Source of the DNA: Mobula hypostoma
Lineage: Eukaryota
Reading direction: 5' to 3'
Length of the DNA stretch: 64,000 bases
NCBI RefSeq assembly: GCF_963921235.1
Contig: NC_086108.1
Span: forward strand, 744,001 to 808,000
Part shown: in pieces, positions 13,834 through 16,157 of the stretch
How positions within the stretch are numbered: position 1 is the stretch's first letter
Layout: every line of letters starts with the position of its first letter
Notes under the pieces: generated by a model
Database searches by the model: none
Seen by the model: only the letters and a program-made list of their open reading frames with translations
Told to the model about the DNA's origin: nothing
Translations under genes and position numbers: made by a program

Positions 13834-13867
13834 GTCCTGACGAAGGGTCTCGGCCTGAAACGTCGAC
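13834..13867 (+). ncRNA. Minimal type I hammerhead ribozyme motif (intact core)
   Basis: gtc-CTGACGA-agggtctcggcct-GAAA-cGTC-gac: stem I gtc/gac, stem II hairpin, loopless palindromic stem III (ACGT), GUC cleavage triplet. Confidence 0.7.
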
Positions 13868-13930
13868 TGCGCCTCTTCCTATAGATGCTGCTTGGCCTGC
13901 TGCGTTCACCAGCAACTTTGATGTATGTTG
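13836..13930 (+). mobile_element. 95-bp Penelope-derived terminal fragment carrying a hammerhead motif
   Basis: 12-bp TSD ctggagtattgt at 13824-13835 and 13931-13942. Confidence 0.8.
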
Positions 13931-15908
13931 CTGGAGTATTGTGTTCAGTTTTAGTCACCAAATTACAGGAAGGATATAAATAAGGTTGAAAGAGTGCAGA
14001 GAAGGTTTACAAGGATGTTGCCAGGACTTGAGAAACTCAGTTACAGAGAAAGGTTGAATAGGTTCGGACTTTATTCCCTGGAGCGTAGAAGAATGAGGGG
14101 AGATTTGATACAGGTATATAAAATTATGATGGGTATAGATAGAGTGAATGCAAGCAGACTTTTTCCACTGAGGCAAGGTGAGAAAAAAACCAGAGGACAT
14201 GGGTTAAGGGTGCGGGGGGAAAAGTTTAAAGGGAACATTGGGGGGGGCTTCTTCACACAGAGAGTGGTGGGAGTATGGAATGAGCTGCCAGATGAGGTGG
14301 TAAATGTGGGTTCTTTTTTAACAGTTAAGAATAAATTGGACAGATACATGGATGGGAGGTGTATGGAGGGATATGGTCCGTGTACAGGTCAGTGGGACTA
14401 GGCAGAAAATGGTTCGGCACGGCCAAGAAGGGCCAATAGACCTGTTTCTGTGCTGTAGTTTCTATGGTTTCTATGTAATGATGCAGCTCTATAAAACTCT
14501 GGTTAGGCCACACTTGGAGTACTGTGTCCAGTTCTGGTCGCCTCACTATAGGAAGGATGTGGAAGTATTGGAAAGGATACAGAGGAGATTTACCAGGATG
14601 CTGCCGCCTGGTTTAGAGAGTATGGATTATGATCAGAGATTAAGGGAACTAGGGCTTTACTCTTTGGAGAGAAGGAGGTTGAGAGGAGACATGATAGAGG
14701 TGTACAAGATATTAAGAGGAATAGATAGAGTGGACAGCCAGCGCCTCTTCCCCAGGGCACCACTGCTCAATACAAGAGGACATGGCTTTAAGGTAAGCGG
14801 TGGGAAGTTCAAGGGGGATAGTAGAGGAAGGTTTTTTACTCAGAGAGTGGTTGGTGCGTGGAATGTACTGCCTGAGTCAGTGGTGGAGGCAGATACACTA
14901 GTGAAGATTAAGAGACTACTAGACAGGTATATGGAGGAATTTGGGGGGGGGGTATGGGAGGCAGGGTTTGAAGGTCGGCACAATATTGTGGGCCGAAGGG
15001 CCTGTACTGTGCTGTACTATTCTATGTTCTATGTTTCTATTAAGTTTCCACATAGTGCTCTACTGCCAAAAGTACAGTCCTGAGATTAGTCAGCCAGTGC
15101 CAACTGATTTGGTAACTGAGACCAAAAGCAAAATAAAATGAACTGTTCGAGGGACTCATCAGCCAGGCAGCATCTGTGAAGTGAAATGGATCACCTATTG
15201 TTTCTCGTCAAGATTTTCATTTGGACTGTAAAAGTGGAGCCATCCCACTTATTTCCCTGTAACCTATTCTCGTGTGCATGCCCACGCCAAATTTCCTGTC
15301 ACCCACCTGCACAATAACCTAGTAACCCTCAAGCTAGCACACCTTTGTGATCGGAAGGAGACCCACACAGTTACAGGGAGAGAGCAAACAGCACCAAAGA
15401 TCAGCGTTGAACCCTGGTTGTTGGAGCTGTAGTTCAGCAGCACTACCTGCTGAGGCAGCATTGCTGACCACTCATTTCAGGGGTAACTTGGGCTGATCAG
15501 GAAATACAATCCAATGGCAAGCACATTAAATCCTTGAATTCTCCCTCCATATCTTGTTTGATAAGTTTATTGTCCACTATGGTTCATAATAATATACTGG
15601 AGCAGTGTTAGGCCATTTGGCCCAACACATCTGTTCCGTCATTCCATCATGGTTGACTTATTTTTCCTCTCAAGGCCATTCTCCTGCATTCTTCCTGTAA
15701 CCTTTGACACCCCTACTGATTAAGAACCCAGTAACCTCTGCTTTAAATGTACCCAATGACTTGGCCTCCATAGTTGTCTGTTGCAATGAATTCCACAGAT
15801 TCACCACTCTGGCTAAAAAAAAATTCCTCTTCATCTCTGTTTTAAAGGAACATCCTTTTATTCTGAGGTGTACCCTCTAGTCCTAGACTCCAACTATTTG
15901 AAACATCC

Positions 15909-16157
15909 TATCCATCCCATGATCCTCTCATATCCCCCTTGCCAATCACCTGTCCAGCTCTTGGCTCCATCCCTCCCCCTCCTGTCTTCTCCTATCATTT
16001 TGGATCTCCCCCTCCCCCTCACACTTCCAAATCTCTTACTAGCTCTTCTTTCAGTTAGCCCTGACGAAGGATCTCGGCCTGAAACGTCGACTGTACCTCT
16101 TCCTAGAGATGCTGCTTGGCCTGCTGCGTTCACCAGCAACTTTGATGTGTGTTGCTG
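15909..16157 (+). mobile_element. Penelope-like element 3' UTR/terminal repeat inserted in an antisense CR1 fragment
   Basis: Pyrimidine-rich UTR, then the hammerhead and a gatgctgcttggcctgctgcgttcaccagca end nearly identical to the 13836 copy. Confidence 0.75.
16057..16092 (+). ncRNA. Minimal type I hammerhead ribozyme motif (intact core, one stem I mismatch)
   Basis: agcc-CTGACGA-aggatctcggcct-GAAA-cGTC-gact. Confidence 0.65.

What the first reader, a model, noticed from the sequence alone, without database searches (positions are those of the whole stretch)
13834..16092. Dispersed family of minimal hammerhead ribozymes on Penelope-derived short retro-inserts
Seen: the motif (c)agtc-CTGAYGA-agggtctcggccy-GAAA-cGTC-gactg recurs about ten times. 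The core is intact at 13834-13867(+) and 16057-16092(+). Variants lie at 7772(+), 19881-19917(-), about 20858(+), about 22344(+), about 31985-32018(-), 34072-34137 (both strands), about 41010-41140 and 47340(+). Established: CUGANGA / stem II / GAAA / NUH closed by stem I is the type I hammerhead. A loopless palindromic stem III (ACGU) is the minimal, dimer-dependent form known from Penelope-like elements and retrozymes. Inference: this ray-like genome holds an abundant non-autonomous, ribozyme-bearing family that protein-centred annotation would miss.
Basis: partly seen in the sequence, partly recalled or inferred. Interest (0 to 1): 0.85.

Follow-up and report, generated by a model that had tools for sequence, protein, structure and literature searches.

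The report
Penelope retrotransposon tails carrying minimal hammerheads
The repeated motif is real: it is the known minimal hammerhead-ribozyme motif at the 3' end of a very abundant Penelope-like retrotransposon, and the window's copies are dead, truncated or inverted retro-copies, so this is a new member of a known kind.

Summary
Observation confirmed. The motif lies at every stated place: 14 fragments at 10 sites. The genome holds 93,998 CpG-decay-tolerant copies of the 33-base motif, against 0 in the control.

Interpretation mostly right. [quoted passage not shown] Insertions show 9-13 bp target duplications, an optional 36-nt tail and abutting inverted 5'-truncated copies. These are Penelope-like element (PLE) hallmarks. 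The RNA matches the published helix-III-less "min-HHR" (PMC4209133).

Not supported: a separate non-autonomous family. Short and long copies share the same variant mix.

Catalysis is unproven:
- Rfam finds nothing.
- Stem covariation does not exceed shuffles.
- The non-hammerhead 3' flank is conserved equally well.
- An older subfamily of at least 5,396 copies carries C at core position 6.
- Same-strand neighbours are rare, 1 of 24.
- Retro-copy 5' ends cluster at the motif's 5' edge, not at the predicted cut.

Verdict: new member of a known kind, modest interest.

The parts
13836..13930 (+). Copy 1. A 95-nt, 5'-truncated, tail-less retro-insert. CUGACGA is 13837-13843, the bulged A is 13844, stem II is 13845-13856, GAAA is 13857-13860, ACGU overlaps at 13860-13863, C17 is 13864, and the helix I 3' strand is 13865-13869.
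   Evidence: It interrupts a LINE-like repeat whose uninterrupted paralogue lies near 14520.
13824..13835 (.). Left copy of the 12-bp target-site duplication CTGGAGTATTGT. The right copy is 13931-13942.
   Evidence: 0 of 200 random flank pairs gave a repeat this long.
15914..16156 (+). Copy 2. 5'-truncated at about -148 and tail-less. The hammerhead box is 16061-16088 and C17 is 16088. It has copy-specific changes at 16059 and 16071.
   Evidence: No significant target duplication was found.
19784..19931 (-). 5'-truncated copy (about -18) with the 36-nt tail. The core is decayed to GAAATGTT. An 11-bp duplication lies at 19774-19784 and 19928-19938.
   Evidence: 1 of 200 random flank pairs as long.
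7512..7911 (.). Head-to-head inverted pair of an older subfamily. The arms are 7512-7612(-), without tail, and 7678-7911(+), with tail. The motif at 7777 reads TTGATGA...GAAATGTC. One 9-bp duplication flanks the whole pair, at 7511-7519 and 7914-7922.
   Evidence: 4 of 200 random flank pairs as long.
20853..20953 (+). Old, degenerate, truncated copy flanked by a 13-bp duplication at 20840-20852 and 20954-20966.
   Evidence: 0 of 200 random flank pairs as long.
22350..22460 (+). Old copy truncated inside the motif. Only GAAACGTCGACTG and the downstream part are left. It carries the tail.
31922..32103 (.). Head-to-head inverted pair. The arms are 31922-32021(-), without tail, and 32027-32103(+), truncated at about +42 and reaching into the tail.
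   Evidence: Its hairpin shape explains the spurious MIR8670 match.
34009..34240 (.). Head-to-head inverted pair. The arms are 34009-34104(-), without tail, and 34095-34240(+), with tail. One 11-bp duplication flanks the pair, at 34004-34014 and 34238-34248.
   Evidence: 1 of 200 random flank pairs as long.
40920..41204 (.). Old head-to-head pair. The arms are 40920-41040(-), with tail, and 41100-41204(+), without tail. Both cores are degenerate.
47255..47418 (+). Old copy that keeps the upstream CCAGTC strand. Its core is decayed to CTGATGG...GAAACCTC.

Best explanation
The motif is the minimal, helix-III-less type I hammerhead motif (min-HHR). It forms the 5' edge of a conserved module of about 145 nt at the 3' end of an endonuclease-bearing Penelope-like retrotransposon (PLE).

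Shown:
- The motif starts about 300 nt after the stop codon.
- Insertions end either about 95 nt or about 131-137 nt after the start of the motif. The difference is the PLE 'tail'.
- Insertions are flanked by 9-13 bp target duplications.
- About a third of sites are head-to-head inverted pairs made in a single insertion event. One arm carries the tail and the other does not.

The window's 14 fragments are therefore dead-on-arrival products of target-primed reverse transcription. They are 5'-truncated or snapped back. They are not members of an independent non-autonomous family.

Inferred:
- In the RNA of source elements the motif can fold into helix I, the core and stem II, and can pair its ACGU with a second copy to cut after C17.
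- Any such cleavage is probably weak and dependent on a partner RNA or on the element's protein, as published for other PLE hammerheads.
- Cleavage is probably not needed for copying.
- The module as a whole, hammerhead included, is more likely conserved because the element's reverse transcriptase recognises and starts on it.
For: PLE identity:
- Upstream ORFs in L007, L025 and L032 carry KPADKGG.
- In a 679-aa uninterrupted frame, RVT_1 matches residues 170-332 (E 2.5e-5) and GIY-YIG matches residues 582-656 (E 6e-4).
- The nearest ESM Atlas clusters carry RVT_1 plus GIY-YIG in eukaryotes (score 0.98).
- The 3' ends are bimodal: 58 of 100 at +84..+120 and 42 of 100 at +129..+137. This matches the 30-40 bp tail and the two RT start sites described in PMC8557442 and PMC11167929 (passages and main text read).
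- 27 of 88 sampled sites are head-to-head pairs.
- Two of the 4 window pairs are each flanked by a single duplication.

Hammerhead architecture (read from the sequence):
- 5-bp helix I, UAGUC or CAGUC with GACUG.
- CUGANGA.
- G10.1 paired with C or U at 11.1.
- GAAA.
- A palindromic 15.2-16.2 pair with no loop, then U and H.
- These are the features listed for PLE min-HHRs in PMC4209133 (whole text read).

Conservation:
- Three lineages keep the core: young, part of the older family, and family B.
- Apart from A6C, differences between lineages fall on N7, H17 and two C/U changes that keep a wobble pair.

Truncation rather than a separate lineage: the variant mixes of long (n=34) and short simple (n=29) copies are alike.
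Against: - Rfam gives no hammerhead match at gathering score, at E up to 10 on the whole window, or on 161 nt alone.
- The RVT_1 and GIY-YIG scores are below Pfam's curated cut-offs: 24.5 against 29.6 bits and 20.5 against 22.6 bits.
- The PDB and NCBIfam gave nothing.
- Stem covariation is absent. The score is 0.162 against 0.168 +/- 0.008 in shuffles, and 377 of 500 shuffles were at least as high.
- The 3' flank (+34..+140), which is not part of the hammerhead, is about as conserved between subfamilies as the hammerhead itself. Sequence upstream of -5 is not conserved.
- In the older family, 22 of 33 recognisable boxes have C at core position 6. Genome-wide this form has 5,396 copies.
- Of 66 short copies, only 2 begin at +25..+31, the predicted cut, while 30 begin at -10..+7.
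- A same-strand partner for a cis dimer is rare: 1 of 24 neighbour pairs within 5 kb.
- Folding does not favour the active form. A GACG/CGUC helix occludes the core in the minimal context, and another hairpin wins in the -40..+60 context. The GUCGAC self-duplex (-10.3 kcal/mol) outcompetes ACGU/ACGU (-3.1 kcal/mol).
- No RNA data could be obtained.
Confidence: 0.8

Rival explanations
1. The short units of about 100-140 nt are an independent, non-autonomous, ribozyme-bearing family, like a retrozyme or SINE. It would have its own source genes and be mobilised in trans by PLE proteins.
For: - 5' ends pile up at the motif's 5' edge. 9 of 29 short simple copies begin at -10..+7, against 1.5 expected (P 1e-5). 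For all short copies the figure is 30 of 66.
- The conserved module starts at about -5.
- Contig depth in four public runs steps up 2.4- to 5-fold at 16060.
- A 2026 preprint (10.64898/2026.07.22.740005; abstract and passages read) argues that animal retrozymes derive from PLE pLTRs.
Against: - Short and long copies share the same variant combinations at +34..+57. TAC|TAGA|CCT is seen in 11 of 29 short and 11 of 34 long copies. CGC|TATA|CTT is seen in 6 of 29 short and 7 of 34 long copies.
- 5' ends also occur at many other positions from -254 to +43, and 34 of 100 copies run beyond -314.
- There are no tandem arrays. Only 1 of 24 neighbour pairs is in tandem, and that pair is 4.2 kb apart.
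- The 5' cluster is broad, about 18 nt, not a single RNA start.
Confidence: 0.1
2. The hammerhead resemblance is vestigial or structural. The block is kept only as the 5' part of the RNA module that the PLE protein binds before starting reverse transcription, and it does not cleave in vivo.
For: - The non-hammerhead 3' flank and the tail are equally conserved.
- The A6C lineage still amplified: at least 5,396 copies, with different flanks at each copy.
- There is no covariation.
- Retro-copies do not preferentially start at the cut site.
- Cis partners are rare.
- Competing folds exist.
- In the anole PLE, hammerhead mutants did not affect insertion in vitro, and no RNA-seq reads ended at the cut site (PMC11167929, main text read).
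Against: - All invariant core letters are kept in three lineages. Variation otherwise falls on N7, H17 and wobble-compatible positions.
- Hammerheads are reported in all canonical PLE clades (PMC4209133; PMC8557442, passages read).
- The anole motif does cleave when its protein is present (PMC11167929).
- A6C hammerheads keep activity with Mn2+ (PMC7151607, passages read).
- Cleavage followed by ligation to a circle would leave no trace in the retro-copies.
Confidence: 0.35
3. Chance resemblance: a repeat that happens to contain CUGANGA and GAAA at hammerhead-like spacing.
For: Rfam models do not recognise it. There is no covariation.
Against: - Twelve proposed pairs are 80.7% formed, against 14.6-45.6% when partners are slid by 1-3 columns.
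- The bulged nucleotide, the G10.1 pair and the palindromic 15.2-16.2 pair were not selected for, yet they match the published PLE min-HHR.
- The motif sits where PLE hammerheads sit.
Confidence: 0.02

Closest known systems
min-HHR of metazoan Penelope-like elements (Cervera & de la Pena 2014, PMC4209133; whole text read, figures and supplements not seen)
   Same: - Type I topology.
- No helix III or loop 3, with a palindromic 15.2-16.2 pair.
- Short helix I (5 bp).
[quoted passage not shown]
- A G10.1-C11.1 pair in the older lineages.
- Located in the element's terminal repeat region.
- Thousands of mostly solitary copies, plus nearby pairs on opposite strands.
   Different: - Stem II is only 4 bp, against 6-8 bp reported for schistosome and Drosophila motifs.
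- The young lineage has G10.1.U11.1.
- Copy number is about ten-fold above the 4,000-9,000 quoted for coelacanth and Xenopus.
- One large subfamily has C at core position 6.
Poseidon PLE of Anolis carolinensis (PAc; Frangieh et al. 2024, PMC11167929; main text read)
   Same: - Two alternative insertion 3' ends 30-40 nt apart (the 'tail').
- A hammerhead lying about 100 nt upstream of the reverse-transcription start.
- 5'-truncated copies.
- No sign in copies or reads of ends at the ribozyme cut site.
   Different: - In PAc the ORF starts inside the hammerhead. Here the frame through the motif stops within the tail, and the ORF ends about 300 nt upstream.
- Here inverted pairs dominate over tandem pLTRs (19 of 24 against 1 of 24).
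- The CX4CX2C linker before the nuclease resembles what PMC8557442 describes for the Neptune clade. Clade assignment was not tested.
Animal non-LTR retrozymes (PMC7229834, listing and abstract only; preprint 10.64898/2026.07.22.740005, abstract and passages)
   Same: A type I hammerhead with a weak helix III. Proposed descent from PLE terminal regions.
   Different: Retrozymes are tandem arrays of short units that give circular RNAs. Here copies are dispersed, solitary or inverted, and are continuous with an autonomous element.
A6C hammerhead core variant (phage Bcep176; PMC3088659 and PMC7151607, passages read)
   Same: The older subfamily reads CUGCYGA, the same substitution.
   Different: The known cases are one phage ribozyme and an engineered mutant. 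Here the change is fixed in a vertebrate retrotransposon lineage with thousands of copies, and its activity is untested.

Membership tests
Hammerhead ribozyme, PLE min-HHR type | Core CUGANGA ... GAAA ... U-H with invariant C3, U4, G5, A6, G8, A9, G12, A13, A14, A15.1 and U16.1 | tested here: met
   Met in the young lineage: 65 CTGACGA and 5 CTGATGA among 100 sampled copies, and 93,998 copies genome-wide. Met in family B. Not met in most of the older family: C at position 6 in 22 of 33 recognisable boxes and in 5,396 copies.
Hammerhead ribozyme, PLE min-HHR type | Helix I of 4-6 bp joining the 5' and 3' ends (type I) | tested here: met
   UAGUC/GACUG in the young lineage and CAGUC/GACUG in the older and B lineages. 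79.4% of cells are paired across 63 distinct copies.
Hammerhead ribozyme, PLE min-HHR type | Stem II closed by G10.1-C11.1, with one extra nucleotide after A9 | tested here: met
   A, then GGGU, the loop CUCG, then GCC(C/U). The closing pair is G-C in 20 distinct rows and G.U in 32.
Hammerhead ribozyme, PLE min-HHR type | No helix III loop; palindromic 15.1-16.1, so that two copies can share a helix III | tested here: met
   ACGU lies directly between GAA and C17. The duplex alone is worth only -3.1 kcal/mol.
Hammerhead ribozyme, PLE min-HHR type | Compensatory changes in the stems | tested here: inconclusive
   No excess over shuffles. Most variation is post-insertion decay. Only one-sided C/U changes separate the lineages.
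Hammerhead ribozyme, PLE min-HHR type | Match to curated Rfam hammerhead models | tested here: not met
   No match at gathering score or at E up to 10. This is expected if the models require helix III, but that was not checked.
Hammerhead ribozyme, PLE min-HHR type | Site-specific self-cleavage after H17 | not testable with these tools
   No run on record as RNA and no raw reads were available. Among 66 short retro-copies, 2 begin at +25..+31.
Penelope-like element, endonuclease-bearing | Single ORF with a reverse transcriptase followed by a C-terminal GIY-YIG nuclease | tested here: met
   Both domains lie in the right order in a 679-aa open frame, but both are below Pfam's curated cut-offs. 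Atlas neighbours carry the same pair of domains.
Penelope-like element, endonuclease-bearing | DKG motif upstream of the reverse transcriptase core (PMC8557442) | tested here: met
   KPADKGGAVVVW is present in L007 and L025.
Penelope-like element, endonuclease-bearing | [quoted passage not shown] | tested here: met
   A 36-nt extension is present in 42 of 100 copies. It is present on exactly one arm in 24 of 24 determinable inverted pairs; 3 further pairs were undetermined.
Penelope-like element, endonuclease-bearing | Inverted 5'-truncated copy abutting the element, and/or partial tandems (pLTRs) | tested here: met
   Inverted form: 27 of 88 sites and 19 of 24 close neighbour pairs. The tandem form is rare, 1 of 24.
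Penelope-like element, endonuclease-bearing | Placement within a PLE clade by phylogeny | not tested
   Only a CX4CX2C linker was noted by eye. No tree was made.
Non-LTR retrozyme | Tandem arrays of short hammerhead-bearing units | tested here: not met
   One tandem pair among 24 neighbour pairs within 5 kb, and it is 4.2 kb apart.

The most novel reading that the evidence does not exclude
This family may be a natural experiment on what PLE hammerheads are for. One lineage fixed the A6C core change, which in other hammerheads nearly abolishes Mg2+-dependent cleavage while sparing Mn2+-dependent cleavage. That lineage still produced thousands of insertions. In all lineages reverse transcripts tend to end exactly where the hammerhead begins. 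Inverted pairs always carry the tail on one arm only. Taken together, the hammerhead would be chiefly the 5' boundary of the RNA module held by the PLE protein during reverse transcription, with cleavage optional or tuned by metal ions. The strict tail asymmetry would record a single priming event followed by snap-back, not two independent priming events.
Probability: 0.3. Interest if true: 0.55.

Novelty: new member of a known kind. Interest (0 to 1): 0.3.

Why it matters
It places about 10^5 hammerhead-like motifs in one vertebrate genome. That is roughly ten times the numbers quoted for coelacanth and Xenopus.

It also shows that they are by-products of one PLE family's abortive copying, not independent genes. 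This affects annotation: hits from ribozyme descriptors in such genomes should be read as transposon tails.

The family offers three handles on the open question of why PLEs carry hammerheads:
- a high-copy A6C lineage;
- a sharp 5'-end hot spot at the motif's edge;
- an all-or-none tail asymmetry in inverted pairs.

Tried and rejected
RNA evidence:
- In one search no RNA holder was listed. All 24 runs are kept as contigs, and 'RNA' is only a guess for 18 of them.
- Laying four runs gave no starts or ends and says nothing on expression or cleavage. It only shows that contigs of four coded organisms hold the element.

Database searches:
- Rfam at three settings gave no hammerhead. The only matches were spurious miRNA hits on TG/TA repeats and on the 31926-32072 palindrome.
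- A DNA search of the own genome with the 94-nt copy returned nothing, because very common words are skipped.
- The PDB sequence search and NCBIfam on the ORF returned nothing.
- A pattern for a very old subfamily found only the window's own copy.

Genome sampling:
They were replaced by small stretches around listed places.
- The samples are therefore the first 20 to 100 places on contig C1 that match an anchor pattern exactly. This favours young, little-decayed copies.

Element structure:
- A search for a downstream continuation of the element beyond the tail found that the shared sequence there belongs to other repeats. The 5' end of a full-length unit was not defined.

Rejected ideas:
- That retro-copy 5' ends mark the ribozyme cut. 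They do not.
- That two independent priming events make the inverted pairs. No tail/tail or no-tail/no-tail pairs were seen among 24.

Other look-ups:
- Earlier findings of this scan returned nothing.
- Literature searches for hammerheads or PLEs in cartilaginous fishes found only general transposon surveys. That is the basis for saying I found no description of this family. The library is incomplete, and the preprint's supplements are closed.
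Full report

Yes. The string CTGAYGA-AGGGTCTCGGCCY-GAAA-CGTC occurs five times in the window at up to 3 mismatches, where shuffles give none. blastn and a profile of the element's last 460 nt recover 14 fragments at 10 sites.

The helices in these two copies are not fully intact:
- Copy 1 begins at 13836, so its helix I has 3 bp, and those use target DNA.
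- Copy 2 has private changes at 16059 and 16071. These are absent from nearly all matching contigs of four public runs.

Genome-wide counts, all with reversed-pattern controls of 0:

| Pattern | Copies |
|---|---|
| Exact 33-mer of the motif | 48,862 |
| CpG-decay-tolerant form | 93,998 |
| 33-mer lying 47 nt downstream | 78,402 |

**2. What carries the motif?**

In 30 loci around exact matches, similarity extends upstream for up to at least 1.5 kb. That upstream sequence encodes a GIY-YIG nuclease domain ending about 300 nt before the motif.

One copy (L032) has a 679-aa uninterrupted frame. It shows:
- RVT_1 at residues 170-332 (E 2.5e-5);
- GIY-YIG at residues 582-656 (E 6e-4);
- a KPADKGG motif upstream.

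Both Pfam scores are below the curated cut-offs. The ESM Atlas places the protein among eukaryotic clusters that carry the same two domains (score 0.98). The PDB and NCBIfam gave nothing.

A reverse transcriptase with a C-terminal GIY-YIG nuclease and a DKG motif defines endonuclease-bearing Penelope-like elements, as described in PMC8557442 (passages read).

**3. Insertion anatomy**

I sampled the first 100 genome places matching the downstream 33-mer, so the sample was not selected on the hammerhead.

- The 3' ends are bimodal: 58 at +84..+120 and 42 at +129..+137, counted from the C of CUGA.
- The 36-nt difference is the PLE 'tail'. It corresponds to the two reverse-transcription start sites mapped for the anole element (PMC11167929, main text read).
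- 34 copies run beyond -314, and 66 are shorter.
- The 100 copies make 88 sites, of which 27 are head-to-head inverted pairs.
- In the window, 5 of 10 sites have duplications of 9-13 bp that random flank pairs rarely match. At 2 of the 4 inverted pairs, one duplication flanks the whole pair, so a pair is one insertion event.
- Among HHR motifs within 5 kb of each other in the first 3.3 Mb of contig C1, 19 of 24 neighbour pairs are head-to-head, 4 are tail-to-tail and 1 is in tandem.

**4. Is it a separate non-autonomous family?**

No. Long copies (n=34) and short simple copies (n=29) carry the same combinations of diagnostic variants in similar proportions. The short copies are truncated products of the same sources.

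**5. Does it fit the hammerhead?**

The sequence shows the following:
- helix I of 5 bp;
- C3-U4-G5-A6-N7-G8-A9;
- one extra A;
- a 4-bp stem II (GGGU/GCCY) with the loop CUCG;
- G12-A13-A14;
- A15.1-C-G-U16.1 with no loop;
- C17, followed by the helix I 3' strand.

[quoted passage not shown] Rfam's hammerhead models do not see it.

**6. Is the hammerhead under its own selection?**

I compared three lineages: young (Y), an older family (O; 17,237 anchor matches; 60 copies read) and family B (2,146 anchor matches; 20 copies read).

- Between Y and O, sequence upstream of -5 is scrambled, but everything from -4 to about +140 is conserved. That stretch includes about 105 nt that are not hammerhead.
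- Within the motif the lineages differ at N7 (C, U or A), H17 (C or U), 11.1 (C or U, opposite G) and 2.5 (C or U, opposite G). The hammerhead consensus tolerates all of these.
- They also differ at A6. In the O sample, 22 of 33 recognisable boxes read CUGCYRA, 8 have A and 3 have T. Genome-wide the C6 form has 5,396 CpG-tolerant matches.
- On 70 copies (63 distinct rows), the 12 proposed pairs are 80.7% formed, against 14.6-45.6% for slid partners. Covariation does not exceed shuffles: 0.162 against 0.168 +/- 0.008.
- A6C is a known natural variant. It lowers Mg2+-dependent cleavage by orders of magnitude but spares Mn2+-dependent cleavage (PMC7151607 and PMC3088659, passages read).

**7. Traces of cleavage**

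None were found.
- Of 66 short copies, 2 start at +25..+31, the predicted cut.
- 30 start at -10..+7. For short simple copies the figure is 9 of 29 against 1.5 expected (P 1e-5).
- The pile-up coincides with the 5' limit of the conserved module and with a depth step at 16060 in contigs of four runs.
- Cleavage followed by re-ligation into a circle would leave no trace, so this does not exclude activity.

**8. Folding**

- In a 52-nt context the minimum-energy fold (-11.7 kcal/mol) contains helices I and II, plus a GACG/CGUC helix that occludes the core. The bare hammerhead fold is -7.7 kcal/mol.
- In a 100-nt context another hairpin wins.
- The ACGU/ACGU contact is worth -3.1 kcal/mol, against -10.3 kcal/mol for the overlapping GUCGAC self-duplex.
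- This agrees with the low in vitro activity of min-HHRs (PMC4209133) and with the protein-assisted cleavage of the anole motif (PMC11167929).

**9. Mechanism proposed**

Shown: the anatomy in sections 2-4.

Inferred:
- Source elements are transcribed.
- The PLE protein binds the conserved 3' module and nicks the target with a 9-13 bp stagger.
- It starts cDNA synthesis at about +95 or about +131.
- It often stops or leaves the template just after copying the hammerhead.
- In about a third of events the product is completed as an inverted duplicate.

Every determinable pair (24 of 24; P 3e-8 if the arms were independent) has the tail on one arm only. This argues against two independent priming events. 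It favours one priming event followed by snap-back, or a coordinated pair. The hammerhead itself may cut multimeric or paired RNAs weakly. I put that at about 40%, and its necessity for transposition at about 25%.

**10. Comparison and novelty**

PLE min-HHRs, their abundance, their dimer logic, the tail and the inverted copies are all in print. I found no description of this family or of hammerheads in cartilaginous-fish PLEs. The 2026 preprint sampled one chondrichthyan for tandem retrozymes, and its supplements are closed.

The family is a new member of a known kind. Three details appear new as far as I could search: the high-copy A6C lineage, the 5'-end hot spot, and the strict tail asymmetry.

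I could not verify that the genome is 'ray-like', and I did not try to name it.

Noticed in passing
G000 sample loci L036-L135; window pairs at 7512-7911, 31922-32103, 34009-34240 and 40920-41204: In head-to-head inverted pairs, exactly one arm carries the 36-nt tail. This holds for 24 of 24 determinable pairs (3 undetermined) and for 4 of 4 window pairs. There were no tail/tail or no-tail/no-tail pairs (P 3e-8 if the arms were independent).
   Followed up: partly
G000 sample loci L036-L135; window 16060: The 5' ends of retro-copies cluster within about 18 nt at the hammerhead's 5' edge (30 of 66 short copies). This is also where conservation between subfamilies begins. The cause is unexplained; it could be an RNA 5' end, an RT stop or a protein footprint.
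   Followed up: partly
L007 and L025 (with L031 and L032): Two loci with different flanks share the same composite over 1.5 kb. A 5'-truncated copy (nuclease part plus 3' region) is joined head-to-head to an ORF-bearing copy. Either the composite was copied as a unit or the same junction formed twice.
   Followed up: no
window 13700-15050: There are two adjacent fragments of a LINE-like repeat with coding-like sequence. The first was the target of the 13836-13930 insertion. The same repeat flanks PLE copies in L024 and L030.
   Followed up: no
window 22940-27384: A long TG/TA-rich simple repeat produces dozens of sub-threshold mir-297 and mir-1277 matches in Rfam. These are artefacts.
   Followed up: no
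window 31926-32072: The sub-threshold MIR8670, AEV_CRE, mir-607 and SNORD46 matches all fall on the hairpin formed by an inverted PLE pair. These are artefacts.
   Followed up: yes
L200, L201, L204, L205: Four family-B copies are nearly identical to each other, flanks included, and share a divergent box (C-R-C-G-A-A-G-A-A-G-C-T). This fragment may be embedded in another repeated unit.
   Followed up: no
coded organisms A-J: Runs labelled as ten different coded organisms hold a quarter to over half of the sampled words of the 243-nt copy. Near-identical copies may therefore exist in several species or samples. Identities were not sought.
   Followed up: no
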